In this document: one piece after another, positions 2 to 29,273 of the stretch | Layout of the letters: every line of letters begins with the position of its first letter | How positions within the stretch are numbered: the first letter of the stretch is position 1 | Assembly: GCA_043803105.1 (NCBI GenBank) | Contig: JAZDKJ010000012.1 | Span: 23,337-87,336, forward strand | DNA from: Candidatus Woesearchaeota archaeon | GTDB taxonomy: Archaea > Nanobdellota > Nanobdellia > Woesearchaeales > JAZDKJ01 | DNA length: 64,000 bases | Direction: 5' to 3' | Notes under the pieces: model-generated | The model's input: the letters and a program-made list of their open reading frames with translations, nothing else | Databases searched by the model: none | What the model was told of the DNA's origin: nothing | Translations under genes and position numbers: made by a program

Positions 2-610
2 GTCATTACTGCTGCCAAAGTAAAGACTTTTGGCGAGACAATAGGCACAAAATGCCCAAGGCACGAGCTTACCCTCACTTTGAAAGATGCAACAGTCGGA
101 ACATCAATTAACGCAGATGCAATTAAGGAAAAGATTGCTGAAGAGATGAGGACATGCTATTACAAAATGTCTGGAAAACAGCAGCTTAATCCTTATGCTG
201 AGAGCAAGATGCCTTTTGAAAAACAGAATATCTGCCTGGTCTGCTCAGAGATATCTTTTGCCCCTGACCTTCAGAAAAAGCTTCCGGAAATCAATAACTT
301 TGGTGCTTTCCTGAAGGATTCTAACTATTCATTCATGCAGGTCAAGACAGCAAATGTCCTATGGGCTATTTTTCCAACAACCAAGCAGTACAAAACTACT
401 GAGCTTGGCACAGATTCATTTTCCACAAAGAATGCTTACTACTTGATTTACAATACCGAATCCCCTGATTGGTGGAGGTCAGATAATCTTTTTAACAGGG
501 CACTTCGTGTTGCTCTTGGAGATTTTGCCGTCAGTGACTCTTATTCAGTGATGCTGCTCATGCCCTCTTCTGACATTGGCACTTTGCAGTGCACATCTTA
601 TATAGGCTAG
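2..610 (+). CDS. hypothetical protein, 5' end truncated by window edge (reading frame is open from position 2; listed ATG at 80 is internal)
   Basis: No stop codon upstream in frame to window start; no recognisable motifs. Confidence 0.45.
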   Translation, partial: VITAAKVKTFGETIGTKCPRHELTLTLKDATVGTSINADAIKEKIAEEMRTCYYKMSGKQQLNPYAESKMPFEKQNICLVCSEISFAPDLQKKLPEINNFGAFLKDSNYSFMQVKTANVLWAIFPTTKQYKTTELGTDSFSTKNAYYLIYNTESPDWWRSDNLFNRALRVALGDFAVSDSYSVMLLMPSSDIGTLQCTSYIG

Positions 611-614
611 CACA

Positions 615-1472
615 ATGAAGAAAGCTGAGCTCAAACTGATTGTCATCTTGGTACTTATGCTTGTTTGCATTTCAGTTATGATTTTATTTGAAGGTTCTGT
701 GTCCAAACTTTTTGCAAGTAGCATTGATTCTACTGGCTGCAAGGCTAATGTCATTGAGCATGCTGCTGCCCACCTTAAGATTGTTGACCTGTCCTCAGAC
801 ATTACCTGCCCTGCAGAGAACATCACCCTAAGATCCCAGGACCCAAAAGCCCAGCTTGCTGACTCAATGTACAAGTGCTGGGATAATTGGGGCAAGGGCA
901 AGCTTGACCTTTTTGCTAATGATGGTGTTTATTGTGTGGTCTGTTCCTGGGTTAAATCCAAGGATAAGTCCATGACCCTTACCGGTTTTGACAACTATCT
1001 GTCTACAACAATAATTCCCGGAAGAGGTATAACCTATCTTGATTTTCTTAATGGTTACGAAACTCCAAGGGGAAAAGAGGTTGTTGGCAACCTTCTCGAA
1101 AAGCAATCACAGAATCCCTCTGTCATTTTCGGTGACAAGACCTATTCAGTGATTTTTGTTTACGCGCGCGGTGATGAATTTATCAAGAAATTGTTGGTAA
1201 CCTCTGCCAGCACTGTGGGCCTTCCTGTGATTATTGCTGGCGGCATAATGGTTGTTGCAGGTTTATCAGGGGTTGGTATCCCTTTTGTGTTGTCTGCAGG
1301 AGCCTTGACCGTTGCAGGGTCAGGGACAGCACTCCTTGGAGGTATAGAAGCGTGGTATGAAGCAAAGTTAAGGATGGAAAGGCCTGACCACGTTGCCTTT
1401 GTTGCCTTAAGGGAGTACAATTCCGGCCAGTTGGATGAGCTCGGCTGCAAATCCCTGCCTGCAAAACAGTAA
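615..1472 (+). CDS. membrane/secreted protein with pilin-like N-terminus (MKKA-ELKLIVILVLMLV) and Gly/Ala-rich C-terminal TM segments
   Basis: Short basic n-region + A + long hydrophobic helix, same pattern as neighbours; ORF track. Confidence 0.55.
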   Translation: MKKAELKLIVILVLMLVCISVMILFEGSVSKLFASSIDSTGCKANVIEHAAAHLKIVDLSSDITCPAENITLRSQDPKAQLADSMYKCWDNWGKGKLDLFANDGVYCVVCSWVKSKDKSMTLTGFDNYLSTTIIPGRGITYLDFLNGYETPRGKEVVGNLLEKQSQNPSVIFGDKTYSVIFVYARGDEFIKKLLVTSASTVGLPVIIAGGIMVVAGLSGVGIPFVLSAGALTVAGSGTALLGGIEAWYEAKLRMERPDHVAFVALREYNSGQLDELGCKSLPAKQ

Positions 1473-1653
1473 CTTTTTTATAATGGTCTTTCCAGGTTTT
1501 ATTGATGTTTAATAGGAAGGCTATGGAAAAAAAGGTAATGGAATGGATTGTACTCCTCGCGCTTCTTGGCATTCTTTTGGGAATCATCTTTTACAAGGCC
1601 TATCCTGCCCTGATGTCAAATATCAAGCTTCCGGGCCTATCCTAGGTGAAAAT

Positions 1654-2181
1654 GTGAAGAAAGCAAGTATCTTGTGGGAGCCAATAATGAAGTGGATTAT
1701 TGTTCTAGTTGTAGTTGCATTTGTTTTCATTTTCTTGCTGCCAAAAGTTTTGTACGGTGCAGACAAGGTCTTGTCCTTAATTGGGGTTTCAGGCTCAAAA
1801 TGCTCTTTTACTGCTGCAAAATGCGCAAACTGTCTTTCAATAACCTCTTCTGTGCCCTCAACAATAGAGTTCAGAAAGTCTGACAATTATGCTTCAACCT
1901 CTTGTGAGATTTCTTCATCAACTCTTGCTTTATCCTTTAATGAGAACTTGAAATCACAGAAGGTGGACATCCTGTCCTGTTGCGGCAAAGCCCCAAAAAT
2001 CAAAACAGATTGGACAGGCTCAGCAAAACAGCTTACAATATCTTTGGACAAGAATTCTCTCAAATTCTCAGGCCTGACTTCTAACTGTTATTATCGCCTT
2101 TCTTTCGGCAAAGATTTAATAAGCGAGACCGGCAAGAATATAAGCACTGACCAGGAGGTTATTGTTTTCAAGACAAAATGA
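1654..2181 (+). CDS. secreted Cys-containing protein with class III-like signal; start reassigned to in-frame GTG giving MKKASILWEPIMKWIIVLVVVAF
   Basis: GTG at 1654 restores the MKKA motif shared by adjacent genes; listed ATG 1543 gives an N-extension with no hydrophobic start. Confidence 0.45.
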   Translation: MKKASILWEPIMKWIIVLVVVAFVFIFLLPKVLYGADKVLSLIGVSGSKCSFTAAKCANCLSITSSVPSTIEFRKSDNYASTSCEISSSTLALSFNENLKSQKVDILSCCGKAPKIKTDWTGSAKQLTISLDKNSLKFSGLTSNCYYRLSFGKDLISETGKNISTDQEVIVFKTK

Positions 2182-2456
2182 AGAAGGCTGACCTTTCCAT
2201 GAACATGATTATTCTTGCAGTGCTTGGCATAATCCTTTTGATTGTCCTAGTTGCGTTGTTCACTGGCAAGATTAGGATTTTCAGCAGTAATGTGCTTGGC
2301 TCCTGCGCAGAGCAGGGAGGCACCTGTGCACAACAAGGTAAATGTGATGAAGGCAAGTATATTGCCTGGGCTACTGGCTGCAGTTGTTATCCTCCTGATG
2401 ACAAGGATTGCAAAGACAAAAAGCTCGGCCAATGCTGTCTGCAGGCTCTAAAATGA
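2178..2456 (+). CDS. small secreted cysteine-rich protein (8 Cys) with pilin-like N-terminus MKKADLSMNMIILAVLGIILLIV...LFTGKI
   Basis: ORF; N-terminal basic+hydrophobic helix; Cys-rich C-terminal 50 aa; 4-nt overlap (ATGA) with next gene. Confidence 0.55.
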   Translation: MKKADLSMNMIILAVLGIILLIVLVALFTGKIRIFSSNVLGSCAEQGGTCAQQGKCDEGKYIAWATGCSCYPPDDKDCKDKKLGQCCLQALK

Positions 2457-2683
2457 AAAAAGCTATGGAAATGCTTGGCACAATAATAACTTCGGTACTT
2501 GTGATTGTGGCTATTTTTGTCATGATATTGCTTTTCACAGGAAAGATTGGTATAACAAAAGAGAATCTTTCAAGCTGCACTACAAAGAATGGAGAGTGTG
2601 TGAAGACAGCTGAAGAATGTTCAGGAGGCACTGCCTTGTTCGATTGCCCGTCTTCAAAGCCTGTATGTTGCATTAAACCTTAG
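2453..2683 (+). CDS. small secreted cysteine-rich protein, paralog of the preceding gene (MKKAMEMLGTIITSVLVIVAIFVMILLFTGKI)
   Basis: Internal ATG at 2453 gives MKKA start; shares the LFTGKI motif and Cys-rich tail with 2178..2456. Confidence 0.55.
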   Translation: MKKAMEMLGTIITSVLVIVAIFVMILLFTGKIGITKENLSSCTTKNGECVKTAEECSGGTALFDCPSSKPVCCIKP

Positions 2684-2688
2684 CAGGA

Positions 2689-3135
2689 GTGATAACCGTG
2701 TTTGGAAAAAAAGGTGATGGTGTACTCTGGGAACAAATACTGTATGCTGTGCTTGTAGTTGTAGCGATTGCTGTGATGTTGTATATTTTTGGACCTAACG
2801 CAGCCAGAGCCAGCACCAGCTTTAATAAATACTTTAATCAGGCTGAGCTTACGCAATGTGCTTTGAAAGGTAGCAATGATAAAGATAGGATTGAGCTATA
2901 CTGCAATCCAAACAATAAGGATTATCCGTATCCTGTTAGCTGCGATCCGTGCCTTGGCGCAACAAACACATACGACATGGATGGTGATGGTATGCCTGAC
3001 CAGTGCGAAAAAGACAAAGGCCAGGATGTTAAAAAGACAGAATGCCTGCATGTCAACAAAGCCAAAAAAACACAATGCTGCATGACCACAACTCCCTGCA
3101 ATAATCTTAAAGCAGTAACCATTACCTGCACCTAA
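2689..3135 (+). CDS. secreted cysteine-rich protein (KKG-DGVLWEQILYAVLVVVAIAV class III-like N-terminus; GTG start)
   Basis: SD-like GGAGTG immediately upstream; hydrophobic helix; 11 Cys in C-terminal domain. Confidence 0.5.
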   Translation: MITVFGKKGDGVLWEQILYAVLVVVAIAVMLYIFGPNAARASTSFNKYFNQAELTQCALKGSNDKDRIELYCNPNNKDYPYPVSCDPCLGATNTYDMDGDGMPDQCEKDKGQDVKKTECLHVNKAKKTQCCMTTTPCNNLKAVTITCT

Positions 3136-3136
3136 G

Positions 3137-5152
3137 ATGCCTCTTTACAAGAAAGCCTTCAGTTCTGTGATGATGGAGGTTGTTGTCCTTATCCTGGTGG
3201 TAGTTGTCATCCTAGCTTCCGGAAAATGGACTTATTCTATGGCATCCTCTCTGTTTGGCAACAAGCAAGGCACTGTGGAGAGCTTTGAGATTGTCTCAAA
3301 GAGTATGCAGGCTCTTGCCAATAGTCAGACTGTTTTTGCCTCTGACAATGCAAACCTCATGATTTTGCAGGATAGTTATGTGATTGTTGGTTTTGACAAA
3401 ACTGAGCAAAAGTCTGTGAGTTCCTGCGAGAGCCGCGAGGCCCAAAAGCCTCCTGTCTGTGCTGGTAGCGCCTGCATCTGCCTTTTCAAATTTGATGCAC
3501 TTGATAAGCCTGTGCAGTGCACAATCCTCTATAATGTTGACCGGGTCTTCACAATCAATTATGATTCTGATTACAGCAGCCGTTTTAAGGTTCCTGAAGC
3601 CTATAGCTTCAACTCCCTAGGCTCACAAGCATACATTTTCAATGACAACTACAAATCATCTTTTTCCTCCACAATTCAAGGAGTGTCAAATCCTGCAGTT
3701 AGCTATTCGCATCTTTTCCTCTTTGGCAATTGCCCGAATGAGCATATTTCCAGAAGTTTTGCAGCCCATAACTTTTACATTGAGAAGTTTGTCGACGCCA
3801 CGCAGAAGAAGACCTATTTCCTTGTTGCCTATGCTGATGAATTTACCATTGCGCACTCTGAGGAGATAAGAAAGAAGTTCGGCTCAAAGAGTCCTGCCGA
3901 GTACGAAAAGCTGATTTCCGAGCTTCTTGCGTCAAAAAATCCTGAGCAGGCTGTTGCAAAGTTCTCTGAGTTCAAGGCAGCTTATCCGCTCGCAAATCTT
4001 TCAAATGCAACTTACCAAAAGCTTTTGCAGTACCTTCTTCCAAAGACCTCAAAAGAGGAGTTGGCCATAGCCTTGCAGATTGTTGATGATTATCTCAAGT
4101 TCTTTCCTAATGATGACAAGACTCAGGAGATGCTCTATAATCAGGGCTTGTTTAACATGCTTCTTGATGATGTTGATGCAGCTAAGGAGTCATTTGACAA
4201 GGTTATTGAGACTAATGCCAAGTCTGAACTGGCAAAAAAGGCTGAAGACATGCTGGACGCTGTCTCAATCATAAAAGAAGATCCCGGCCTCACAGGCGAG
4301 TCAAGCCAGGCTACAATTAAGAGGTTAACTGAGGAGATTTCATCAGAAAAGGATGATTCCAAGCTCGGCGAGCTCCATTATGGGCTTGGTGTTGCTTACC
4401 TTGTCGCAAATATTAGGTCACGCTCAACCATTTATCCAAGAGATCTTGCAGTAAACGAGTTTGCTACAGTAATCTCAAAATATCCTGTAAGCGAGTATGC
4501 TGATGTTTCTTGCTACAATCTCGGCCTTGTCTACAGCTCTTTGGCTGAACAAAATGAAAAAGACCATCAAAAGGCTTGTGAATATTTCGCTAAAGTTTAC
4601 CAGGATTACCCCTTTGGCAAGTCTGTCTTTAATGAGGACTTGAGCACTCTTGCTGCTGACAAAATCAAAAGGTTTGACTGCAATGTGGACGAGTATGATA
4701 CATTTGATTCTTCTTCATATACAGAACCTGCTCCTTCTGACGTTTCAACTGATGTCTTAGACCCAAAACTTCAAGGCCTCACTCCTGAGACTGTTGAGGA
4801 CGTCAAGAAATTGCAGACTGCATTGAATGCTAAGTTTGTTATTCATGAGGGCTACGCAACCACCGGCCATCTGCCTGGCTCACTTCATTATGTAGGCAAG
4901 GCAGTTGACTTTCACATCACTGGAACAAGCCTAACATATCTCGAGCAGATCGATGCAATGAATCAAGCACTCATTGGTTTAAAAATTGCAGACAACGGCT
5001 TTGGTATCTATCCTGATTGGCGTAATCCTGGCTTTCACTTCGATACCCGTGGCAAGGTTGCAAGATGGGGCTGGCTCAGCAAGCATGAGGTCTCTTATCA
5101 GGCTGCTCTGGATTACGCAAAGGCGCATGCACCAGCAACTGCTGTTGGCTAG
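3137..5152 (+). CDS. membrane-anchored protein with central TPR-like helical repeats and a C-terminal peptidase M15 (YcbK/MepK-like, Peptidase_M15_3) domain
   Basis: C-terminus HEGYATTGHLPGSLHYVGKAVDFH ... NGFGIYPDWRNPGFHFDTRG matches the zinc-binding SxHxxGxAxD and GxGxY...FxHxDxR motifs of M15A/M15_3 peptidases; N-terminus MPLYKKAFSSVMMEVVVLILVVVVIL. Confidence 0.65.
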   Translation: MPLYKKAFSSVMMEVVVLILVVVVILASGKWTYSMASSLFGNKQGTVESFEIVSKSMQALANSQTVFASDNANLMILQDSYVIVGFDKTEQKSVSSCESREAQKPPVCAGSACICLFKFDALDKPVQCTILYNVDRVFTINYDSDYSSRFKVPEAYSFNSLGSQAYIFNDNYKSSFSSTIQGVSNPAVSYSHLFLFGNCPNEHISRSFAAHNFYIEKFVDATQKKTYFLVAYADEFTIAHSEEIRKKFGSKSPAEYEKLISELLASKNPEQAVAKFSEFKAAYPLANLSNATYQKLLQYLLPKTSKEELAIALQIVDDYLKFFPNDDKTQEMLYNQGLFNMLLDDVDAAKESFDKVIETNAKSELAKKAEDMLDAVSIIKEDPGLTGESSQATIKRLTEEISSEKDDSKLGELHYGLGVAYLVANIRSRSTIYPRDLAVNEFATVISKYPVSEYADVSCYNLGLVYSSLAEQNEKDHQKACEYFAKVYQDYPFGKSVFNEDLSTLAADKIKRFDCNVDEYDTFDSSSYTEPAPSDVSTDVLDPKLQGLTPETVEDVKKLQTALNAKFVIHEGYATTGHLPGSLHYVGKAVDFHITGTSLTYLEQIDAMNQALIGLKIADNGFGIYPDWRNPGFHFDTRGKVARWGWLSKHEVSYQAALDYAKAHAPATAVG

Positions 5153-5194
5153 ACCAAAAGCTTTAATAAATGCGCTTTCTGTTTCTTGCCTTAA

Positions 5195-6253
5195 ATGAAA
5201 AAAAGAGGTTTTGGTCTTAGAGCCAGTCTTGACCCTACTCACCATCTTTATCTTGTGTTATTTGAGTTGTTTCTGGTTGCAATAGTCTTCATTGCCTTGA
5301 TGTCTTATGTCAAGTCTTTGCAGGAAAATACATTGCTTGAGAAGAGCTATCTTTCAAAAGACCTGGCCTTGCTCTCAACTGCAATCTACTCCAGTCCCGG
5401 TGATGTTTTTTACGTCTACACTCATCCAAAGATTGGCTTGCAGCGCTACAATTTCATTTTCCAGCAGGGCTCTGTAATAGTTTCTGATGCATCTTCCTAC
5501 AAGATTTCTTATCCTTATGGCCTAAGCCCTAAGATAAAGGCTTCTTCAATCAGCATTGACAAGCCGATTGGCATCCTTTTCTCTCTTTCCGATTCTAATC
5601 TTTACATCACTGCCTCAACCCTTGAACAAACCATCTCATGCCCTGATGTGGAAACTAAGGCTTCTGGAGATAGGATTGTTGCTATAGATCCTGGCCATGG
5701 AGTTGACACAAGGCTCTCTAGTCCGACCTCAGCCTCAGGTGCAGGCTCTGTCTTTGGCACTTTAATCGAGCAGGACTTGACCAAAAATATTGGCTCAGCC
5801 CTCTCTTACCAGCTCAATCAGGCCGGTGTTAAAACCATCGTTACTAGTTCAGGTGACAGTTTTGTTTCAATGCAGGAGAGGCTTTCCACTGTTTCCAGGG
5901 ATGATGTTTCGTTGGTCATTAGCCTGCATACAGGCAATGAATTGCCTCCATTCAACGGGATTCGCGCCTTCATCTATTCATCCTCTTCCAAGTCATTGCA
6001 GAGCGAAAAGCTTGCCTGCCTTGTTTTGAAGCAGTTTGCCCTCAAATTTCCAGCGATTACCTCTATTGAGTTGAACAGGCTCGATGCCTCAGCACTTGAA
6101 GGTATCGATAATCCAATGCTTGTTTTGTATGGCGATAAGCCTTCTGTGCTGATCGAGATAGGTAATCTCCAGCTTGAATCAGGCTTGTTGAAAGAACAAT
6201 CACCTTCGATTGCAGAGCCTATTGTGAAGGCTATCCAGAGTTACTATGAATAA
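5195..6253 (+). CDS. N-acetylmuramoyl-L-alanine amidase (Amidase_3 family) domain protein with N-terminal membrane anchor
   Basis: IVAIDPGHGVDTR ... VSLVISLHTGN ... GIRAFIYS ... PSVLIEIGNLQLESG follow the Amidase_3 pattern (DxGHGG...DLFxSIHAN...E.Y...VLVELGFxSN). Confidence 0.7.
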   Translation: MKKRGFGLRASLDPTHHLYLVLFELFLVAIVFIALMSYVKSLQENTLLEKSYLSKDLALLSTAIYSSPGDVFYVYTHPKIGLQRYNFIFQQGSVIVSDASSYKISYPYGLSPKIKASSISIDKPIGILFSLSDSNLYITASTLEQTISCPDVETKASGDRIVAIDPGHGVDTRLSSPTSASGAGSVFGTLIEQDLTKNIGSALSYQLNQAGVKTIVTSSGDSFVSMQERLSTVSRDDVSLVISLHTGNELPPFNGIRAFIYSSSSKSLQSEKLACLVLKQFALKFPAITSIELNRLDASALEGIDNPMLVLYGDKPSVLIEIGNLQLESGLLKEQSPSIAEPIVKAIQSYYE

Positions 6254-6881
6254 GAAGAGTGAGATTTCAGATTACATGATTGCCTTTGTTCCTAGGTTTC
6301 TCTTTCTTGTTGTGATGCTTGTCAGCATTTATTTTCTTGTGCACACATATGTAAAGACTGAAGTTGACACCTTTGATGCAGAGTCTGCTCTGTTTGTTGA
6401 CCGCCTGATTTACTCAAGGGATGGGTTATGCCAGATGTCCCAGGGCCAGGTTACTCCAGGAATTATTGATGCTTCAAGGCTTCAATACCTTGAATCCAAC
6501 CTGACCAAAAATATTGTCTATCCTGATTCACGGCACATTGCTGCAAAAGTTTCGATTAAGGATATGGGCTCTGCTGAGCTTTTTTCTTTTTATTACAACA
6601 AGGATTGGTTTGATAGGTGGATTGTGCTCTCAAAGTACTCAGGCAGCAGCGCATCCACTGTTTCCAGGAGGAGCCTTTACTTCCTGTTGAAAGGAAAATC
6701 TGAGCTTGATAAGCTCTTGTTGAAGAACCAGATTTCCGGGCTTCAGTCCGACCCGTTGTTTGCCTCAAGCCAAGAGCTTGTGCCATTGCAGAAGCAGCTT
6801 GATGAGCTTTCCAAAAAGCCTAAAGATGATGCTATCATTCCAGTTTGGCTGGAAATTATTGTGGTGATGCCAAATAGTTAA
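6246..6881 (+). CDS. hypothetical membrane-anchored protein (MNKKS-EISDYMIAFVPRFLFLVVMLV)
   Basis: ORF track; pilin-like N-terminus; overlaps the preceding gene by 8 nt. Confidence 0.5.
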   Translation: MNKKSEISDYMIAFVPRFLFLVVMLVSIYFLVHTYVKTEVDTFDAESALFVDRLIYSRDGLCQMSQGQVTPGIIDASRLQYLESNLTKNIVYPDSRHIAAKVSIKDMGSAELFSFYYNKDWFDRWIVLSKYSGSSASTVSRRSLYFLLKGKSELDKLLLKNQISGLQSDPLFASSQELVPLQKQLDELSKKPKDDAIIPVWLEIIVVMPNS

Positions 6882-7394
6882 GAGAGCTCTTCTTTCACCA
6901 AATCTTCTTGATTTTTATGCATACATAGCTTTCTGCGTAGTCCTGATCATTTTTTTCCTCCTGTTTTCAATAAGTCCGACCAAATCCATTGAAAGCATTT
7001 CCTCAAAACAGATTTCAACAGATTCTGGCCTTATCCTGATTAATCTGCTGAAGACTCCTGCCTCTCAGAGTAGCAGCGTCTCTGATATTCTGCTCACCGC
7101 GTCAGATTCTGATGATTTTAAGTCATTTGCATCATACGCAAAGCCTGTTATTGAGCAATTTGTTGCGTCTAACTTCGATGATTGCTGCTATGAGTTATCG
7201 GTTGTTAAGGCAGGCTCAGCGATTTTTGTGCTGACCACGGAAAATTGTGAGCTTTCAAAATTAAATGAGGTCTCTGCGTCAGTCAGTGTTCCGCCGAAAG
7301 ACCCGAAAAAGGCAGGCCTTGATGTTGTGCTAACCCTTTACAGGTCTTACCTTGTTGGCGGAAACATTGGTGCTACAAGGATGCAGAGTTCAGT

Positions 7395-9572
7395 TTGCAA
7401 GTACAAAAAATGAAAAAAGCCTTTGTTTTCAACATCAGCTTGGTTTTCATAACTACTATTGTGTTAATGTCCATCTTCCTTGTCCTCCAGTCCAAGAGAA
7501 GCTCTCTTGAGCTTGACAATCTTGGTTCAAGGCCTCTTGACCTTATCAGTTCTTATGAGTCAGGGGAGTCTATTAGGTTTTTCATAGAGCAGTCCTTAAG
7601 GAATAGCTTTGGACAGTCTGTTTTTGATCTGGCTTCAAACGGTGGTTTTGTAGAGTATAGCAAGTGCGGCTCTTATCTTGGTTATCAGCTCTGGCAGCCA
7701 GAATGTTTTCCAAATCTTGATTCAGAGTTCAATAAGCGTTTGCAGCTTGTTTTTGGAGACTTCTTGCTCACTTACAAGCAGGAGTTGCCTCTCTCGTATT
7801 CTTCAGCCATCGAATCTAAAGACCCCCTCAAGGTTTCTGCCTTCCCTAACACGCCAATCACCATTGATGTCTTCACTAAGAAGCTCACCTCAGTGAAGCC
7901 TGGTTTTTGGGCTAAGCTTGTTGCAAAAATATCTGGCGCAACTTTGCCTGAGCCTTCTGATTTGAGCAAAGCCCCCAAGTTTGTTTCAAAGAATAGCAAA
8001 GGAGTAATGAACAATATCTATATTTTATACAGCAGCTCTCTTTCAAGGTACACAATTGATTATCCTCAGGTGTCAAAGTCATTGATCGCAGGCGTGATTG
8101 CTCAGGAGTCTAAAGGAGACCCATTTGCTATTGGCACTCTTGGCACCAGTGCAGGCCTGACCCAATTTGAGCTTGCAACAGCCAAAGGTTTTCCACAGGT
8201 TTTCAAGAAATTGACTGATTGTGCGTGTTCCGGCTCTAAGTGTAAGCTTAGTGCCTTGTGCAACCCTTCTAATGATGACAGGTTAAATCCAGATATTTCA
8301 ATAAAGGGTTCTTTTGTTTACTATGCATCGCTATTAAATAGCTTTTCAAAGTTCTCTTCAGCCACAGAGTTTGCAGTTGCTTCTTACAATGGAGGAGAGT
8401 CTGTCATCAGGAAGGCCATTTCATCAACAGGCTTGTCCAATCCTTCATGGCCACAGGTTTCTGCTGCTTTGCGGCCTGAGCTCATTACATATATATCATC
8501 TGAGTCTGCAAGGCTTCGTAAAGTCGAGATTATAAGGAACTATGTTAAGGCAGTAATGGCCTATAAATCAGAATATGAGTTGCTTGACCAGGCTCAAAAG
8601 CAGCAGGCTTACGAAGAGAAAAAAAAGGACCTTGCTAAGACTCATGATTGCTGTTTCTGCTCGCAAAAGTGCGGTTTTGATTGCTCTCTTGTTCCTGTCC
8701 CAGAATCTCAGGCCTGTGGCCCCCTTTCTATTGGCATTGGTGTTAATTGTGATGTATCTTCTTGTTCCCTTCCGCAGACCTCCACTTCAACATACCAATT
8801 TAGGCCTGTAGTGGCTGCCTCGTCAAATTATAATCTGACAACCTACCAGCGCATCCAATACCTTCTTACCTCAAATAACGGACTCCTTGCCAATCTTGCA
8901 ACCTGTTCTTCTGCCAAGCCTTTGGCAGTTTGCCTCGCTCCCTTGTCATCAGTTATGTCAGAAAAAGACCCTAGCCTAAAGTGGGGTTTTGACCTTGATT
9001 GTGATTCAAATGCAGAGATGGTTTTTGACAGGTTTGCTGAAAATCTTCTTTTGTGTTCAATGTCCGCTACAGATAATTGTGTATGTAATCTTGCAATGGA
9101 CATTGGTAAGCAGATGGTCCCTGACGGCACTTTTGAAATCAAGCTCTCAAATTCTGGCTCAACCACTGTTCTGCAGTCAGACAAGGTTAAGGACTTCACT
9201 GTACCTGTTTTATCAAGCATTTTCCTGAGGTCCATGACATCATCTGAAAAAGCAGATTTCAAATATGACATAAACTACAGGAAGGGTGTTTTCTACAAGG
9301 CAAGCCTTAACACTGCAAATTATGTTTCTGTTTTGGGCAAAAATGTGAGGATTGTGAAGCAGGGAAAGGCCTTGACATTTGTTGATGATGAGGTTTTTGC
9401 TGCATCATTTGCCTCAATGCCCTCTTGCACTGTTCAGAAGGATACTCTACGAGTTTGCGTCTCAAGGCTTATTTCAGGCAAGCCTGAGCAGGTTTATGCA
9501 TTCAACCCATTGACAGGCAAGGTCGAGCCTCGTAACCTGGTGTATAGGTTTGCGATTAAAGCCTCTGTTTGA
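7395..9572 (+). CDS. large secreted protein with lytic transglycosylase (SLT/GH23 lysozyme-like) domain
   Basis: VIAQESKGDPFAIGTLGTSAGLTQFELATAKGF and VASYNGGESVIRKAI match SLT catalytic motifs (E-S ... GLMQ ... AYNAG); N-terminus MKKAFVFNISLVFITTIVLMSIFLVL. Confidence 0.65.
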   Translation: MQVQKMKKAFVFNISLVFITTIVLMSIFLVLQSKRSSLELDNLGSRPLDLISSYESGESIRFFIEQSLRNSFGQSVFDLASNGGFVEYSKCGSYLGYQLWQPECFPNLDSEFNKRLQLVFGDFLLTYKQELPLSYSSAIESKDPLKVSAFPNTPITIDVFTKKLTSVKPGFWAKLVAKISGATLPEPSDLSKAPKFVSKNSKGVMNNIYILYSSSLSRYTIDYPQVSKSLIAGVIAQESKGDPFAIGTLGTSAGLTQFELATAKGFPQVFKKLTDCACSGSKCKLSALCNPSNDDRLNPDISIKGSFVYYASLLNSFSKFSSATEFAVASYNGGESVIRKAISSTGLSNPSWPQVSAALRPELITYISSESARLRKVEIIRNYVKAVMAYKSEYELLDQAQKQQAYEEKKKDLAKTHDCCFCSQKCGFDCSLVPVPESQACGPLSIGIGVNCDVSSCSLPQTSTSTYQFRPVVAASSNYNLTTYQRIQYLLTSNNGLLANLATCSSAKPLAVCLAPLSSVMSEKDPSLKWGFDLDCDSNAEMVFDRFAENLLLCSMSATDNCVCNLAMDIGKQMVPDGTFEIKLSNSGSTTVLQSDKVKDFTVPVLSSIFLRSMTSSEKADFKYDINYRKGVFYKASLNTANYVSVLGKNVRIVKQGKALTFVDDEVFAASFASMPSCTVQKDTLRVCVSRLISGKPEQVYAFNPLTGKVEPRNLVYRFAIKASV

Positions 9573-14489: not shown

Positions 14490-16040
14490 ATGGTTTCAAA
14501 AAGGGGTGATTCTTACACTGTTCTTTATGGTGTTCTTGTTGTTTTGGTTGGCTTGATTGTGATTTTTGGCTTTCGTTCGATTGTTCAGTTGAACCAGAGT
14601 GCTCAGGATGTAAAGGTTTTGCAGTTCATTACAAGTTTGGATGAGGATGCACAGACTATGTCTTCTAAGGTTGGCTCTCTAACTCAATCAACCTACTCTC
14701 TTCCTATGGTTGTTAACGAGGTCTGTTTTGCTGATTTACAGACTTCACCTGAAAGTATTGGTAGTGCTCTTATCGGGAAATACTCTTTCATTAAACGCTC
14801 TGTCGAATCTGGTTCTGGTAAGAATGTTTTTTTGGTTGGTGACAAGTTTTTTGATTCGTATTCTGTTCCCAGCCTGCATTTAGATGATGGAGTCATGTTT
14901 GCTTGCCTGAATCCTGAGGCTAAGGTTTTGTCTCTTGACCTTAAGGGTTCTGCTAAAGGTGCTGTGCTTGTTAAGGGTTGGAGGGTTGAGCGCACTCTCT
15001 CTACCTCTGCGACTACTGATATTGTTTCTGCTGATAGTTCAGCATTAATGTCTGTTCCTGCCGGCGCTTCTGCCTCTCCAACACTTTCTGTTGAGGTTAT
15101 CTCTCATCCAGGCTACGATTTCTTGAGTGAGGCCTATAAGTTTGGTCCATCAGGAACAGTTTTTGATCCGGCTGCAACCATTTCAATCTCCTTCAATCCC
15201 GCTGAGATAACAGTCTGTCCGCCTGGCAGGGCACAATTTGTCTTCAAGCTGTACGATGACAATAATCAATTCATTGAGGACCTTCAGTATGATTCTGTTG
15301 ATTGTGTTAGTCATGTTATGACTTTCAGGCTTGACCATTTCAGTTGGGGAGGCATTGCTGCTGTCCAGGCGACACAATATACGCTCAACGTTGTTATTAA
15401 CAATGAGGGGACTGTAATAGCCAAGGTTGGTGGAAATATAGTTCCTTTACCGCTTACTGCTGACTTCGGAGCTGTGGTTCACCTTGTGGCTGGTCCGAAT
15501 TTTGTTGGGTGGAGTACCATTCCAGCTGTTGCGCCTTTTAGTTCAGCTAACACTCTCTATCAAACGTTGACTGCGACAGGTACGATTTACGCCAATTTCC
15601 GTGCTAGTGGTCTTACGGGCAAATGGGCTAGTGTTTTAGCCAATGGATACAAGTGCAATGTCAAAAACACGTACATCGGAATTGGCTATCACGAGAGGGG
15701 AATACCGGGGGCCATAGATGTTGCCCCCAATCAAATAACCTACTTCATTATTGATCCAACCGGATACACTGGACTTGATTATAGCGGCAGAAACATTGTC
15801 GTTAGGGCACTTGACTACGATCAAAGTAATACAGGCACGTCAAAAGATACGGTATCCAAAGCCAGATTGATTGTAGTGGATCGCAATGGCAATGAAATTG
15901 TAATTTATAATCTTGGTGGAGAAAATAACAATTTTGTTGGCACTGTTCAATGTGATGCCACCACCAAAGATAGGATTTATATTGTTGAGCACAAGCAGGG
16001 AGATTTAAGAGGAGCTCAGATATCCTCCTGGTGGCCGTAA
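14490..16040 (+). CDS. surface protein paralog 1 (class III-like signal KRG-DSYTVLYGVLVVLVGLIVIF; conserved N-module, InlB-B-repeat-like middle module, variable C-terminus ending GDLRGAQISSWWP)
   Basis: ORF; near-identical 5' 280 bp to paralog 2; preceded by TATA-like ATATTTAAG about 26 bp upstream of the ATG. Confidence 0.7.
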   Translation: MVSKRGDSYTVLYGVLVVLVGLIVIFGFRSIVQLNQSAQDVKVLQFITSLDEDAQTMSSKVGSLTQSTYSLPMVVNEVCFADLQTSPESIGSALIGKYSFIKRSVESGSGKNVFLVGDKFFDSYSVPSLHLDDGVMFACLNPEAKVLSLDLKGSAKGAVLVKGWRVERTLSTSATTDIVSADSSALMSVPAGASASPTLSVEVISHPGYDFLSEAYKFGPSGTVFDPAATISISFNPAEITVCPPGRAQFVFKLYDDNNQFIEDLQYDSVDCVSHVMTFRLDHFSWGGIAAVQATQYTLNVVINNEGTVIAKVGGNIVPLPLTADFGAVVHLVAGPNFVGWSTIPAVAPFSSANTLYQTLTATGTIYANFRASGLTGKWASVLANGYKCNVKNTYIGIGYHERGIPGAIDVAPNQITYFIIDPTGYTGLDYSGRNIVVRALDYDQSNTGTSKDTVSKARLIVVDRNGNEIVIYNLGGENNNFVGTVQCDATTKDRIYIVEHKQGDLRGAQISSWWP

Positions 16041-16185
16041 AAAGAACGGCGGACAGCAGTTGACCAATTAAAATTAACGAGGGCAGATTTCCCAAACACA
16101 ATTTTTTACTTTTTCTGGAATGTTATATTCGAAGTTCTGTCCTCGGCAGGGCCTTCGTATGAGTTAATCGAAGGTTTTCGAGCGG

Positions 16186-16200
16186 AAGATATTTAAACGC
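16186..16200 (+). promoter_or_regulatory. BRE/TATA-like element (GATATTTAAAC) about 26 bp upstream of the paralog-2 ATG, implying a leaderless transcript; equivalent elements at about 14456, 18037 and 19758
   Basis: Conserved in all four repeat units. Confidence 0.4.
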
Positions 16201-16220
16201 AATTTCCCCCAACTTAATAA

Positions 16221-17855: not shown

Positions 17856-18065
17856 ATATCTCCCGGGACAAATATCTTCGATGAAATTTGCGTTTGGTTT
17901 TATTATTGGCAATTTATGCCTCATTTTTCTCTCGAATTCTGCACTGGCTCAGTCCCTTTCTGGCATATTATATTCGAAGTTCTGTCCTCGGCAGGGCCTT
18001 CGTATGAGTTAATCGAAGGTTTTCGAGCGCAAGATATTTAAACGCAATTTCTCCCAACTTAATAA

Positions 18066-19586: not shown

Positions 19587-19787
19587 TGAAAAAGCGGGAA
19601 AGGCAAAACGGGATGCTTTTCTGGTAGTCCTCCGTTTTTTTGATATGGCGCATTCTCCGGAAGCAGTTTTTCTTGCTTGTTAATCAAGTCGAACAGTTTA
19701 GCGAGTTCTTCATCAAGGCCCTTCATATGATTTGATTGATAGTTTTCCGACGAAAGATATTTAAGCGCAATTTCTCCCAATCATTGT

Positions 19788-24503: not shown

Positions 24504-24537
24504 ATGTTTATATATTCTCTTCTTATCTTTTCTTCCA

Positions 24538-28635: not shown

Positions 28636-29273
28636 AGCGCTTTGCAAAGCATGTTTTTGTAGTCACATTGGTACTTCTGGTTGTCGTTTTTGTCACCGGC
28701 CTGCTCTTTGGTAGGTCTCTTGGCACTTCAAGGGAGGTTGAAATCACAAGGTTGATTCAGCGTAATGAGCTTAATGCAGAGAGCTTCTTGATTGAGCAGG
28801 ACCTGTTCAAGAACCTTGACAAGAGCAATTGTGAGCTTGTCAGGATAAGGCTTACTGACATGTCTAATGAGCTTGGAAAGACTGGACGAGTGCTTGTCCA
28901 GAACAATTCAAGAAGCTCACTTGGCGCTGAAGAATTTGCTTTTCTCAAGCTAAAGTATCACTTGATGCAGGTAAGGTCTTACCTGTTGTTTGAGCGCCTC
29001 AAGGATAAGTGCAATATCACATCAAACGTGATTTTGTACTACTATGGCATCAATGATAAGGACTCTGCCGAACAGGGCAAGATACTTGACCAGGTGGTAA
29101 AGGATTACCCTGTGTCTGTTTTTGCTATTGAGTACAATTATTCCCCCCAGCTCAGGTTCCTTGAGGCTTTCTATAATGTGACTGCCACTCCGACCATTGT
29201 TCTGGATTTTGGTCGCATCCACATGGGATTGGCTGATTACGATACCATCACCAGTGAATTGACAAAGCCATAA
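28629..29273 (+). CDS. membrane-anchored hypothetical protein (module shared with the next gene)
   Basis: ORF; homology to the N-terminal 200 aa of 29273..31357. Confidence 0.5.
   Translation: MVKRFAKHVFVVTLVLLVVVFVTGLLFGRSLGTSREVEITRLIQRNELNAESFLIEQDLFKNLDKSNCELVRIRLTDMSNELGKTGRVLVQNNSRSSLGAEEFAFLKLKYHLMQVRSYLLFERLKDKCNITSNVILYYYGINDKDSAEQGKILDQVVKDYPVSVFAIEYNYSPQLRFLEAFYNVTATPTIVLDFGRIHMGLADYDTITSELTKP

What the first reader, a model, noticed from the sequence alone, without database searches (positions are those of the whole stretch)
615..9572. Run of 10 consecutive genes with a shared MKK(A/G/S)-hydrophobic N-terminus
Almost every protein from 615 to 9572 begins with a 3-6 residue basic n-region ending in A/G/S, followed directly by a 20-25 residue hydrophobic helix. 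Examples are MKKA-ELKLIVIL, MKKA-SILWEPIMKWIIVLVVV, MKKA-DLSMNMIIL, MKKA-MEMLGTII, KKG-DGVLWEQILY, YKKA-FSSVMMEVVVL, KKS-EISDYMIAF and MKKA-FVFNISLVF. The same pattern appears at KRG-DSYTVLYG in the paralog array and KRG-QITIIL at 23583. This resembles the archaeal class III (prepilin peptidase PibD/FlaK/EppA) signal rather than Sec or Tat signals. The locus therefore looks like a co-localised set of PibD substrates, for example a surface appendage or adhesion organelle carrying lytic enzymes.
Basis: partly seen in the sequence, partly recalled or inferred. Interest (0 to 1): 0.6.

Follow-up and report, generated by a model that had tools for sequence, protein, structure and literature searches.

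The report
Archaeal pilin operon with wall-cutting enzymes
A tiny, probably symbiotic archaeon (Woesearchaeota) carries an operon of about a dozen pilus-subunit-like proteins, three of which are fused to enzymes that cut bacterial cell walls, which suggests a hair-like appendage used to grip and breach bacterial hosts.

Summary
In a Candidatus Woesearchaeota MAG, 10 of 11 complete ORFs between 615 and 9572 begin [KR][KR][G/A/S], then 0-10 residues, then a ~20-25 residue hydrophobic helix. A truncated paralogue runs off the left edge. The operon recurs in about 20 DPANN loci. There 117 of 129 cluster proteins keep the motif, against 14 of 46 other N-terminal-TM ORFs (p=1e-14).

In four distant loci the same gene set directly follows a T2SSE/FlaI-type ATPase and a ~730 aa platform protein. 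One locus also has an A24 (FlaK-like) prepilin peptidase. AlphaFold models of two members show a ~50-residue N-terminal helix leading into a globular head, as in type IV pilins.

Three members (g6, g7, g9) are conserved pilin-like carriers fused to peptidoglycan hydrolases: M15-like, Amidase_3 and SLT. In relatives the same carriers bear glucosaminidase, NlpC/P60, VanY or M23, or no enzyme. One swap lies between carriers ~95% identical over the first 400 residues.

Cleavage is unproven, and no peptidase, ATPase or platform gene lies in this window. I rate it a new variant of a known kind, modular type IV pilins, with moderately high interest.

The parts
2..610 (+). g0: 3' part of a gene that runs off the left edge. 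It is a paralogue of g1 (4-Cys extracellular domain) without the C-terminal Gly-rich hydrophobic hairpin.
   Evidence: The frame is open from base 2. It aligns with g1 and with the gene preceding g1 in other loci, sharing conserved Cys. BLASTP to L001 2009-2791 gives E=2e-35.
615..1472 (+). g1: MKKA|ELKL, a 4-Cys globular domain, a Gly/Ala-rich hydrophobic hairpin (~res 200-245) and a short C-terminal tail. Probably a membrane-retained pilin-like base or assembly component rather than a fibre subunit.
   Evidence: AF2 gives pLDDT 79.7, with helix 3-52, then an alpha/beta domain, and low confidence for 209-244. There is no PDB or BFVD fold match. The family has 920 representatives at 50% identity. 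It lies directly after the ATPase and platform genes in L013, L014 and L018, and one small gene further on in L005. Orthologues in L003, L007, L009 and L016 lack the K[GAS] site.
1523..1645 (+). g1b: 40-aa single-helix protein (MEKKVMEWIVLLALLGILLGIIFY...). It is the only cluster member with V at -1.
   Evidence: The sequence is. A ~44-58 aa counterpart sits at the same position in L001, L003, L004, L005, L009, L013, L016 and L019, and those have KKG, KKA or KRG.
1654..2181 (+). g2: GTG start, (M)KKA|SILWEPIMKW, helix, ~140 aa Cys-containing head. Minor pilin-like.
   Evidence: Orthologue L001 3761-4381 has GRKA|FALDK.
2178..2456 (+). g3: 92-aa Cys-rich small pilin-like protein, MKKA|DLSMNMIILAVLGIILLIVLVALFTGKIRIF. 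Candidate major fibre subunit.
   Evidence: The N-terminal helix is conserved in small proteins of L001, L002, L003, L007 and L009 (E 1e-6 to 3e-18). The positional counterpart in L013 gives a sub-threshold Flp1_like hit (E=2.9e-5, 23.8 bits against a cut-off of 33.5).
2453..2683 (+). g4: 76-aa Cys-rich small pilin-like paralogue of g3, MKKA|MEMLGTII....LLFTGKIGI.
   Evidence: L001 4638-4910, E=4e-15. The start overlaps the g3 stop, which suggests translational coupling.
2698..3135 (+). g5: MFGKKG|DGVLWEQILY, Cys-rich ~110 aa head. The ORF opens at GTG 2689. The GTG at 2698 follows an AGGAG.
   Evidence: Orthologues in L003 and L007, and positional equivalents in L001 and L019.
3137..5152 (+). 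g6: modular protein. MPLYKKA|FSS, helix, conserved carrier module (~res 35-230), TPR region (YbgF/BamD-like, ~250-500) and a C-terminal LAS/M15-type peptidase domain (SLHYVGKAVD ... GFHFD).
   Evidence: Pfam TPR hits, and Peptidase_M15_2 at E=0.009, below the cut-off. NCBIfam YbgF/BamD TPR. Motif search. Carrier-only orthologues of 230-254 aa occur in L003 and L010. The cargo is replaced by Glucosaminidase in L001, NLPC_P60 in L019 and Glucosaminidase plus M15 in L020.
5195..6253 (+). g7: modular protein. MKKRGFGLRA|SLDPTHH, helix, 7-strand sheet and an Amidase_3 domain (N-acetylmuramoyl-L-alanine amidase).
   Evidence: Pfam Amidase_3 at 3e-18. AF2 pLDDT 84.9, with helix 14-65, strands 71-140 and the amidase fold at 161-351. 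Foldseek to AmiC2 5emi gives E=5e-12 and TMt 0.82. DPGHG, E and SxH align with 5emi. Carrier-only orthologues of 131-158 aa occur in L007, L010 and L013.
6246..6881 (+). g8: MNKKS|EISDYMIAF, helix, ~170 aa head. Minor pilin-like and well conserved.
   Evidence: Orthologues in L001, L002, L003, L007, L010 and L016 (E down to 8e-58), with KKA|E or KKA|Q sites.
6874..7413 (+). gX: intact ORF with no canonical start codon. ATA at 6874 gives (M)VKRA|LLSPNLLDFYAYIAFCVVLIIFF. Minor pilin-like.
   Evidence: Translation. Orthologue L001 9471-10004 (MKKG|LLGSNIADFLAY) at E=2e-38, also found in L002, L010, L013 and L016.
7410..9572 (+). g9: modular protein. MKKA|FVFNISL, helix, conserved carrier module (~res 30-160), SLT lytic transglycosylase (223-346, with the QES, GLTQF and YNGG motifs), a Cys-rich linker (413-448) and a C-terminal domain (461-715).
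   Evidence: Pfam SLT at 2.4e-11. NCBI calls it an SLT domain protein of a Woesearchaeota MAG. The carrier is conserved in L002, L009, L010 and L016 (E~1e-12 to 1e-15). The cargo is VanY/M15 in L003 and L007, NLPC_P60 in L022 and L023 and M23 plus SLT in L029. The C-terminal domain is a separate gene in L003 and L007.
14490..21359 (+). Array of four paralogues (516, 544, 506 and 523 aa), MVSKRG|DSYTVLYG. The N-terminal ~295 aa are strongly conserved and the C-terminal ~200 aa vary. Probably variable-head pilin-like proteins of the same system.
   Evidence: Alignment A6. The N-domain is homologous to cluster members that lie upstream of g0 in L003 (5670-6182, E=7e-11) and L009. No Pfam domains.
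23583..24503 (+). 306-aa protein, MQKRG|QITIILVLVVFIVIIL. It has a textbook KG|Q class III-type site.
   Evidence: Weak homology (E=2e-5) to L016 327-1745, a member of that locus's cluster.

Best explanation
The region is the pilin-gene operon of an archaeal type IV filament (type IV pilus-like) system in a Woesearchaeota (DPANN) genome.

Proposed mechanism:
1. Each product is inserted into the membrane by its basic tip and ~20-25 residue hydrophobic helix.
2. An A24 prepilin peptidase of the PibD/FlaK/EppA type removes the short MKK(A/G/S) leader ahead of the helix.
3. The freed helices let a secretion ATPase and platform protein, encoded elsewhere in this genome, polymerise the subunits.
4. 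The small Cys-rich proteins (g3, g4) are the likely bulk fibre subunits. g2, g5, g8, gX and g0 are minor pilins.
5. g1 has an extra hydrophobic hairpin and loses the cleavage site in some lineages, so it probably stays in the membrane as a base component.
6. g6, g7 and g9 are modular pilins. Each is a conserved pilin-like carrier fused to a peptidoglycan hydrolase: an M15-type peptidase, an Amidase_3 and an SLT lytic transglycosylase. Together these could cut the peptide, the peptide-glycan link and the glycan strand of murein.
7. Archaea are not known to make murein. The enzymes therefore most likely act on the wall of a bacterium that the archaeon touches, opening it locally for attachment, penetration by the fibre, or uptake of host material.
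8. The enzyme modules are exchanged between lineages like cassettes on constant carriers.

Shown: the motif and its conservation, the synteny, the link to T4P machinery in other loci, the domain content, the predicted folds and the cassette exchange. Inferred: cleavage, polymerisation, display on a fibre and a bacterial target.
For: The motif meets the published class III rules. It occurs in 10/11 window cluster proteins against 1/13 controls (p=9e-5) and in 117/129 against 14/46 across loci (p=1e-14). Position -3 is K or R in 105/117. Position -1 is G in 53, A in 51 and S in 13. Q is the commonest +1 residue, as in EppA substrates.

The operon order g0-g1-small-g2-small pilins-g5-g6-g7-g8-gX-g9-RPA-YdjM is conserved in L001, L002, L003, L007, L009, L010, L013, L016, L019, L020, L022, L024, L026 and L029.

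In L013, L005, L014 and L018 the cluster follows a T2SSE ATPase and a ~730 aa platform protein. The ATPase is closest to A. fulgidus GspE 2oap, CpaF and FlaI. L005 adds a Peptidase_A24 related to FlaK 3s0x.

AF2 of g7 shows a helix at 14-65, a 7-strand sheet and an amidase fold, with pLDDT 85. AF2 of g1 shows a helix at 3-52 and a globular domain.

The hydrolase domains and motifs are present. Short orthologues consisting of the carrier alone exist for g6, g7 and g9.

Cassette swap: the g6 proteins of L001 and L019 are ~95% identical over residues 1-400, then end in an unrelated Glucosaminidase or NLPC_P60 domain.

Overlapping stop and start codons indicate one operon. Cryo-TEM of groundwater ultrasmall cells has shown pili-like appendages extending into host cells (PMC7906910).
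Against: No prepilin peptidase, ATPase or platform gene lies in the 64 kb window. None lies next to the cluster in the closest relatives L001, L019, L024 and L026. The rest of this genome could not be inspected.

No Pfam or NCBIfam pilin or class III model hits any window protein. The only pilin-family hit is a sub-threshold Flp1_like match in one L013 orthologue.

A few cluster members lack the site: g1b here, and g1 and g8 orthologues in some loci. The spacer between site and helix is longer (5-7 residues, often with acidic residues) than in most characterised archaeal pilins.

The M15 call for g6 rests on a sub-threshold Pfam hit plus motifs, with no PDB sequence match. Several lineages carry no recognisable hydrolase, or a degenerate amidase, so lysis is not a universal function of the locus. 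There is no experimental evidence for cleavage, a fibre or a bacterial host.
Confidence: 0.6

Rival explanations
1. Bindosome-like or pseudopilus-like surface assembly. The proteins are processed at class III sites, but the result is a short, cell-associated scaffold rather than a long fibre. It would hold the hydrolases and binding modules in the envelope, in the manner of the Sulfolobus bindosome or a type II secretion pseudopilus.
For: Many different large non-pilin-looking proteins carry the signal. g1 has an extra membrane hairpin. In Sulfolobus, class III signals on functional non-pilin proteins (sugar-binding proteins) are established. No data here show an extended filament.
Against: Small (76-92 aa), highly conserved helix-plus-knob proteins suited to being bulk fibre subunits are present in every locus, often in several copies. 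Pili-like appendages are seen on ultrasmall cells in situ. This rival shares every sequence-level prediction with the main explanation, so sequence alone cannot separate the two.
Confidence: 0.15
2. Ordinary uncleaved signal anchors. MKK(A/G/S) would be only a positive-inside N-terminus, and the proteins would be type II membrane proteins forming a membrane-bound adhesion and lysis patch, with no peptidase processing or polymerisation.
For: MKK is a common N-terminus. No peptidase gene is in the window. Pilin profile models do not hit. Some orthologues (g1 in L003, L007, L009 and L016; g8 in L009 and L013) lack the site yet keep the helix.
Against: A small residue at -1 is not needed for a signal anchor, yet it is kept in 117/129 proteins at 25-48% identity, against 14/46 controls. 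The stricter KK[GAS] pattern occurs in 1/13 other N-terminal-TM proteins of the window. Orthologous clusters sit beside the ATPase, platform and A24 peptidase genes. The +1 position is enriched in Q. The predicted structures have a pilin-like long alpha-1 helix.
Confidence: 0.15
3. The hydrolases act on the archaeon's own envelope, to let the fibre pass or for division. This would parallel the lytic transglycosylases that accompany bacterial type IV pili and type IV secretion systems.
For: SLT enzymes dedicated to pilus and secretion machines are well known in bacteria (general knowledge). The enzymes here are encoded inside the pilin operon. The envelope of Woesearchaeota is uncharacterised.
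Against: Archaea are not known to make murein (general knowledge; PMC8204110). Three to six different murein-specific enzyme classes, exchanged as cassettes between near-identical carriers, look like diversification against a foreign target rather than housekeeping. Many related loci work without any hydrolase.
Confidence: 0.07
4. Classical Sec signal peptides cleaved after the hydrophobic segment, releasing soluble secreted lysins and small Cys-rich peptides.
For: The N-termini have the n-region and h-region layout common to all Sec signals. I could not run a signal peptidase I predictor.
Against: The hydrophobic segments are 20-25 residues, which is transmembrane length. In the AF2 models they run without a break into a ~50-residue helix packed on the globular head. 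Giant proteins in the same loci have distinct, ordinary Sec signals such as ...SYSYA|DETG in L003, so the two signal types coexist and differ.
Confidence: 0.03

Closest known systems
Archaeal type IV pili and their class III signal-peptide substrates (Epd pili of Methanococcus maripaludis with EppA; Aap/Ups pili of Sulfolobus and PilA pili of Haloferax with PibD). This corresponds to 'System 1' and related TFF classes in the archaeal censuses (PMC4858521; bioRxiv 10.64898/2026.04.22.720090).
   Same: A short basic leader ends in K/R then G/A/S, followed by a ~20-residue hydrophobic helix. There are many minor pilin genes in one operon and small major-pilin candidates. In related loci there is a VirB11/GspE-type ATPase, a large polytopic platform protein and an A24 peptidase. 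Q is frequent at +1, as in EppA substrates. DPANN archaea are already listed as carrying such systems.
   Different: None of the proteins matches the Pfam or NCBIfam pilin N-terminal models. The spacer between site and helix is longer and often acidic. In the Woesearchaeota-type loci the pilin operon is detached from the ATPase and platform genes and fixed next to RPA/RadA. Three subunits carry murein hydrolases, which neither census mentions.
Bacterial modular type IV pilins (Streptococcus sanguinis PilB with a vWA module and PilC with a lectin module; more than 1,200 examples in InterPro, many from CPR bacteria; PMC8179133).
   Same: A pilin module (alpha-1 helix plus beta-sheet) is linked to a C-terminal functional module, as in the AF2 model of g7. 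The same carrier is found with different modules or with none. The idea is that the fibre presents the module to a target.
   Different: This case is archaeal, not bacterial. The modules are murein hydrolases of up to six families rather than adhesins or lectins. That survey mentions only a peptidase signature (IPR030392) among the predicted functions of the frequent architectures it discusses. Three such modular subunits co-occur in one operon.
[quoted passage not shown]
   Same: It is the precedent in archaea for functional non-fibre proteins that use prepilin-type signals and T4P-like machinery for surface localisation.
   Different: The cargo there is solute-binding proteins for uptake, not lytic enzymes. 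There is no sequence relationship, and here typical small pilin candidates are also present.
[quoted passage not shown] 2021, PMC8204110; earlier Rinke 2013, Castelle 2015).
   Same: The same phyla and the same SLT domain. The proposed role is the same: binding and degrading the wall of a bacterial host. g9 is annotated by NCBI as such a protein.
   Different: That work describes a family of isolated large proteins. It does not mention pili (0 occurrences of 'pili' in the text). As far as the passages I read show, it also does not report prepilin-type signals, the operon, the other hydrolase classes or cassette exchange.
Pilus- and secretion-associated lytic transglycosylases of bacteria (VirB1 of type IV secretion, and specialised SLT enzymes of type IV pilus and flagellar operons). 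Recalled from general knowledge, not tested here.
   Same: An SLT-family enzyme is encoded within the operon of an envelope-spanning filament machine.
   Different: Those enzymes open the producer's own murein and are not pilin fusions. Here the producer is an archaeon without known murein, and the enzymes carry prepilin-type N-termini.

Membership tests
Archaeal class III (prepilin peptidase) signal peptide substrates, FlaFind-type criteria | Charged residue at -2 and G/A/S at -1 of the processing site | tested here: met
   10/11 complete cluster ORFs, 4/4 array paralogues and the 23583 protein have [KR][GAS]. Across loci, -2 is K in 94 and R in 23, and -1 is G in 53, A in 51 and S in 13. The rule is taken from PMC4371748.
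Archaeal class III (prepilin peptidase) signal peptide substrates, FlaFind-type criteria | The processing site precedes a hydrophobic H-domain of ~20 residues and lies close to the N-terminus | tested here: met
   The sites lie at residues 4-10. Hydrophobic cores of 20-25 residues start 0-10 residues later. AF2 places them at the start of a ~50-residue helix. The FlaFind program itself could not be run, and its original paper is not held.
Archaeal class III (prepilin peptidase) signal peptide substrates, FlaFind-type criteria | Actual cleavage by PibD, FlaK or EppA | not testable with these tools
   This needs N-terminal proteomics or a cleavage assay. An A24 peptidase gene is seen only in the related locus L005.
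Curated pilin N-terminal sequence families (Pfam Class_IIIsignal PF04021, Pilin_N PF07790, Flp1_like PF16982; NCBIfam pilin models) | Profile match above the curated threshold | tested here: not met
   No window protein hits any of them. Among 148 cluster proteins from 12 loci, there is one sub-threshold Flp1_like hit (L013 11908-12075, 23.8 bits against a cut-off of 33.5).
Type IV filament (TFF/T4P) system | Secretion ATPase of the GspE/VirB11/FlaI family encoded with the pilins | tested here: inconclusive
   Absent from the window and from the closest relatives' visible flanks. Present directly upstream of the orthologous cluster in L013, L005 and L014 (T2SSE Pfam hits; PDB 2oap, CpaF and FlaI).
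Type IV filament (TFF/T4P) system | Polytopic platform protein (TadC/FlaJ/PilC type) | tested here: inconclusive
   A ~730 aa protein lies next to the ATPase in L005, L013, L014 and L018, and the copies are 41-78% identical to one another. It has no Pfam hit, so its identity as the platform rests on size, position and the hydrophobic stretches I saw in its sequence. None is present in the window.
Type IV filament (TFF/T4P) system | Dedicated A24 prepilin peptidase in the genome | tested here: inconclusive
   Peptidase_A24 at L005 16954-17805 (Pfam 2.7e-12; FlaK 3s0x). None in the window. The genome could not be searched.
Modular type IV pilins | N-terminal pilin module: long alpha-1 helix with a hydrophobic N-half, packed on a beta-sheet head | tested here: met
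   AF2 of g7 gives helices 14-44 and 47-65, then strands 71-140, with pLDDT mostly 87-93 in that region. No fold search of the isolated module was possible, so similarity to solved pilins is judged from topology only.
Modular type IV pilins | A separate functional module fused C-terminally, with the carrier also found alone or with other modules | tested here: met
   g6, g7 and g9 carry M15-like, Amidase_3 and SLT modules. Carrier-only orthologues exist. Alternative modules are Glucosaminidase, NLPC_P60, VanY and M23. A recent swap is seen between L001 and L019.
Amidase_3 N-acetylmuramoyl-L-alanine amidases (g7) | Profile match, fold and metal-binding or catalytic residues | tested here: met
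   Pfam 66.8 bits against a cut-off of 27. Foldseek to AmiC2, CwlV and AmiB with TMt up to 0.82. DPGHG, E and S-x-H align with 5emi. The motif is lost in the more distant homologues P0011 and P0013-16.
SLT (GH23) lytic transglycosylases (g9) | Profile match and the catalytic Glu in the E-S motif | tested here: met
   Pfam SLT 43.7 bits against a cut-off of 21.3, residues 223-346. The sequence shows ...IAQESKGDP..., GLTQF and AYNGG. There is no PDB sequence hit, so no structural check was made.
LAS/M15 zinc peptidases (g6 C-terminus) | Profile match and the SxHxxGxAxD plus H-x-(D/H) zinc motifs | tested here: inconclusive
   Only a sub-threshold Peptidase_M15_2 hit (16.2 bits against a cut-off of 27) and no PDB sequence match. 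However, SLHYVGKAVD and GFHFD are present. The domain is conserved, with variant motifs, in L026 and L028.

The most novel reading that the evidence does not exclude
Some Woesearchaeota build a type IV pilus-like fibre whose minor subunits are interchangeable murein-cutting warheads (SLT, amidase, M15, glucosaminidase, NlpC/P60, M23) on constant pilin carriers. This would be an archaeal, contact-dependent device for breaching bacterial cell walls. Its enzyme cassettes would be swapped between lineages in an arms race with bacterial hosts or prey. It would be the first molecular mechanism for a DPANN-bacterium interaction and a new functional class of type IV filament.
Probability: 0.35. Interest if true: 0.8.

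Novelty: new variant of a known kind. Interest (0 to 1): 0.62.

Why it matters
The hosts of most DPANN archaea, and the way these cells attach to and feed on them, are unknown. It has been suggested, from isolated SLT-domain proteins, that Woesearchaeota and Pacearchaeota live on bacteria (PMC8204110). Microscopy has shown pili-like appendages of ultrasmall cells entering host cells (PMC7906910).

This locus ties those two observations together in a concrete and testable way. The murein hydrolases are written into the pilin operon as prepilin-type fusion proteins, and at least six enzyme families are exchanged on three conserved carriers.

If the reading is right, it has four consequences:
1. 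It gives a genomic marker for DPANN lineages that target bacteria rather than archaea.
2. It extends the modular pilin principle from bacteria to archaea, and from adhesion to enzymatic attack.
3. It supplies candidate antibacterial enzymes.
4. It defines a large unannotated protein family (g1, about 920 clusters at 50% identity) as a conserved part of DPANN type IV filament loci.

Tried and rejected
1. I tried to reach the rest of the source contig, to look for the peptidase, ATPase and platform genes. Exact-protein look-ups of g1 and of the NCBI copy of g9 found nothing on record.
2. Pfam and NCBIfam gave no pilin or class III model hit for any window protein. I do not treat that as evidence against pilins, because archaeal pilins are notoriously divergent, but membership in those families is not claimed.
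3. The FlaFind source paper is not held, so I used the rules as summarised in PMC4371748 and my own rule-based scan.
It worked with 4 sequences.
5. The homologue search with full-length g6 returned only the protein itself, because the TPR words swamped the candidate list. Cargo diversity was therefore sampled through the neighbours of g7 and g9 homologues instead.
7. I considered and rejected a mobile element or virus origin. Composition is uniform, the flanking RPA/YdjM/RadA genes are conserved across lineages, and there are no viral fold matches.
8. I considered and rejected a type IV secretion (conjugation-like) locus with a VirB1-type SLT. There is no VirB4- or VirD4-like gene in any locus, and the ATPase that is found is of the GspE/CpaF/FlaI type.
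9. My first crude gene caller picked two antisense ORFs over g3 and g4. These were corrected by hand.

Full report
SOURCE. The window is from a Candidatus Woesearchaeota (DPANN) metagenome-assembled genome. The products of g9, g7 and g6 are each 100% identical to NCBI proteins labelled 'MAG... [Candidatus Woesearchaeota archaeon]' on a 182,149-base contig. The rest of the window encodes archaeal housekeeping proteins: RPA, RadA, ribosomal proteins, RpoD, aIF5A, LeuRS and gyrase A. GC content is an even 0.39-0.47, and no tRNA was found.

OBSERVATION.
- Curating the ORFs gives 11 complete genes and one truncated gene on the + strand between 2 and 9572. Stop and start codons overlap or nearly abut, so this is one operon.
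- Two genes were not evident from a plain ORF list. One is a 40-aa ORF at 1523-1645. The other is gX, an intact reading frame at 6868-7413 that has no ATG, GTG or TTG. ATA at 6874 sits where its orthologue in L001 has ATG.
- Ten of the 11 complete proteins start [KR][KR][G/A/S], followed after 0-10 residues by a 20-25 residue hydrophobic stretch. The 40-aa ORF has V at -1.
- In the window the strict pattern occurs in 10/11 cluster proteins, against 1/13 other proteins with an N-terminal membrane helix (p=9e-5).
- The four-gene paralogue array at 14490-21359 and the gene at 23583 have the same kind of N-terminus.

COMPARATIVE GENOMICS.
- I retrieved about 25 related loci through g9, g7 and the g1 family: L001-L030, several of them duplicates.
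- The gene order g0, g1, ~50-aa gene, g2, small Cys-rich genes, g5, g6, g7, g8, gX, g9, then RPA, a YdjM-like gene and RadA recurs in loci labelled Woesearchaeota, Nanoarchaeota or 'uncultured archaeon'. Pairwise identities to the window proteins are 20-55%.
- Across 11 loci, 117 of 129 cluster proteins have [KR][GAS] just ahead of the hydrophobic core, against 14 of 46 other ORFs with an N-terminal hydrophobic core (p=1.3e-14).
- Position -3 is K or R in 105/117. Position -1 is G, A or S in 53, 51 and 13 cases. Q is the most frequent +1 residue at 27/117.
- A positive-inside signal anchor has no need for a small residue at -1. Its retention at this divergence is what argues for a peptidase site.
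- These are the features given for archaeal prepilin-peptidase substrates. A +1 Q is typical of EppA substrates (PMC4371748).

LINK TO PILUS MACHINERY.
- The window contains no ATPase, platform or A24 peptidase. Neither do the visible flanks of its closest relatives. There the cluster starts after an AsnC-like gene and a MazE-like gene.
- In L013, L005, L014 and L018 a g0/g1-family gene lies directly downstream of a 756-762 aa ATPase and a ~730 aa membrane protein, or one small gene away.
- That ATPase has a Pfam T2SSE hit. Its best solved relatives are A. fulgidus GspE 2oap, CpaF and FlaI.
- L005 also carries a Peptidase_A24 related to FlaK.
- L013 shares downstream synteny with the window: g7-, gX- and g9-type carriers, then RPA, YdjM, a ~90-aa gene and RadA. 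The window operon is therefore the orthologue of a bona fide type IV filament locus that has become separated from its motor genes.
- The g1 family is large, with 920 representatives at 50% identity and E<=1e-3. It has no Pfam or NCBIfam model.

STRUCTURE.
- AF2 of g7 (12-sequence alignment, pLDDT 84.9) gives an N-terminal helix spanning residues 14-65 with one kink, a seven-stranded sheet at 71-140 and an Amidase_3 fold at 161-351.
- The amidase part superposes on AmiC2, CwlV and AmiB, with TMt up to 0.82.
- AF2 of g1 (61 sequences, pLDDT 79.7) gives a 50-residue N-terminal helix and an alpha/beta head with no match in PDB or BFVD. The Gly-rich hydrophobic segment at 209-244 is modelled poorly.
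- A long alpha-1 helix whose N-terminal half is the hydrophobic segment is the universal feature of type IV pilins (PMC8179133).
- g1 has an extra membrane hairpin, and its orthologues in four loci lack the cleavage motif. I therefore infer a membrane-retained component rather than a fibre subunit.

THE ENZYMES.
- g7 has Amidase_3 (E=3e-18), with DPGHG, E and SxH aligned to 5emi.
- g9 has SLT (E=2e-11), with the QES, GLTQF and YNGG motifs.
- g6 has a YbgF/BamD-like TPR region and a C-terminal domain with the LAS/M15 zinc motifs SLHYVGKAVD and GFHFD. The Pfam hit is only sub-threshold.
- Each enzyme sits on an N-terminal module that is conserved in loci where the protein is short and has no enzyme:
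  - g6-type of 230-254 aa in L003 and L010, by BLAST, and a 188-aa gene at the same position in L013;
  - g7-type of 131-158 aa in L007, L010 and L013;
  - g9-type of 277 aa in L002, by BLAST, and a 239-aa gene at the same position in L013.
- The cargo differs between lineages:
  - g6 carries Glucosaminidase in L001, NLPC_P60 in L019, and Glucosaminidase plus M15 in L020.
  - g9 carries VanY/M15 in L003 and L007, NLPC_P60 in L022 and L023, and M23 plus SLT in L029.
  - g7's amidase is degenerate in some lineages.
- The g6 proteins of L001 and L019 are ~95% identical over the first 400 residues and then diverge into unrelated catalytic domains. This is a recent cassette replacement.
- A Pfam sweep of 148 cluster proteins found essentially only murein hydrolases, TPR and a few adhesion-type repeats.

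MECHANISM, most likely.
1. Membrane insertion is through the N-terminal helix.
2. An A24 peptidase removes the 4-10 residue leader.
3. A GspE/FlaI-type ATPase and a platform protein carry out assembly.
4. g3/g4-type small disulfide-rich subunits form the shaft, and the other small proteins act as minor pilins.
5. g6, g7 and g9 are modular pilins that present three complementary murein hydrolases to a bacterial wall.

The steps shown are the sequence features, conservation, synteny with machinery, folds, domains and cassette exchange. The steps inferred are cleavage, polymerisation, location of the enzymes on the fibre and a bacterial target. A short bindosome-like or pseudopilus-like assembly would fit the same data and cannot be separated from a long fibre by sequence.

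RIVALS. Uncleaved signal anchors are disfavoured by the conserved -1 residue and by the machinery linkage. Sec-type cleavage after the helix is disfavoured by helix length and by the continuous alpha-1 in the models. Action on the archaeon's own wall is disfavoured because archaea are not known to make murein and because of the cassette diversity. It is not excluded, because the envelope of this clade is unknown.

WHAT IS KNOWN.
- Type IV filament systems in DPANN are listed in the censuses. The text searches and passages I read from them showed no reference to hydrolases.
- SLT-domain proteins of Woesearchaeota and Pacearchaeota have been noted and proposed to degrade bacterial walls. That paper does not mention pili, and the passages I read describe no prepilin signals or operon context.
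- Modular pilins are established in bacteria, with adhesin or lectin modules.
- My full-text searches found no paper that joins these three points. That covers only the held library.
- I therefore rate the finding a new variant of a known kind.

LIMITS.
- No experiment supports the model, and the genome beyond the window was not seen.
- The platform protein is identified only by size, position and homology among loci.
- The M15 assignment is motif-based.
- The pilin-like fold is judged from AF2 topology, not from a fold search of the isolated module.

Noticed in passing
window 6868-7413: gX is an intact, conserved ORF with no ATG, GTG or TTG start. ATA (6874) occupies the position of the ATG of its L001 orthologue and overlaps the stop of g8. 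This is either initiation at a non-canonical codon, a start-codon mutation or a base-call error.
   Followed up: partly
window 1523-1645: A 40-aa single-helix ORF (MEKKVMEWIVLL...) lies between g1 and g2. A ~44-58 aa counterpart occupies the same position in most related loci, often ending ...LRFG or ...NWR. Its function is unknown, and it is too short to appear in a default ORF listing.
   Followed up: partly
window 14490-21359: Four tandem paralogues have a near-identical N-terminal ~295 residues and divergent C-terminal ~200 residues, separated by ~200-base spacers. Their N-domain is homologous to short cluster members found upstream of g0 in L003 and L009. This looks like a variable-head family of the same system, but no domain was identified.
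   Followed up: partly
window 8646-8753 (g9 residues 413-448); L001 5286-7658: A Cys-rich stretch (HDCCFCSQKCGFDCSLVPVPESQACGP...) in g9 recurs in the g6 proteins of L001 and L019 (E=2e-6). It is a small shared module that moves between carriers.
   Followed up: no
window 8790-9572 (g9 residues 461-715); L003 15535-16494, L007 7428-8381: The C-terminal domain of g9 is a separate gene, with its own N-terminal helix, just downstream of the VanY-bearing g9 in L003 and L007. This is gene fusion or fission within the operon.
   Followed up: no
L001, L003, L016 and other loci: small Cys-rich pilin-like proteins (counterparts of window 2178-2683): Two of the 148 cluster proteins gave weak hits to a plant defensin-like Pfam family (AtDEF-like, E=7.5e-4), and one to a bacteriocin-like family (YxzE). 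The Cys-rich knobs of the small subunits might resemble antimicrobial peptides, or the hits may be chance cysteine patterns.
   Followed up: no
window 28629-31357: Two adjacent proteins share an N-terminal helix plus a ~200-aa domain. The longer one has a weak hit to the thioredoxin-like TraF family (E=0.002). They could be extracytoplasmic disulfide oxidoreductases serving the many Cys-rich secreted proteins. They sit within a block of large polytopic and glycosyltransferase-like genes (24379-32748).
   Followed up: no
L019 1736-3269; L024 3242-4782: In the closest relatives with visible upstream sequence, the cluster is preceded by a conserved pair: a ~300-aa MazE/AbrB-domain protein on the minus strand and a ~160-aa AsnC-like protein. 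These are candidate regulators of the operon. The equivalent region lies just left of this window.
   Followed up: no
L029 14445-15194: In the locus where g9 carries M23 plus SLT, a polysaccharide deacetylase (Polysacc_deac_1) gene follows RPA. This could be another wall-modifying enzyme recruited near the cluster.
   Followed up: no
L001 219-995: An IS240-family DDE transposase lies directly upstream of the cluster in L001. It marks a rearrangement boundary there.
   Followed up: no
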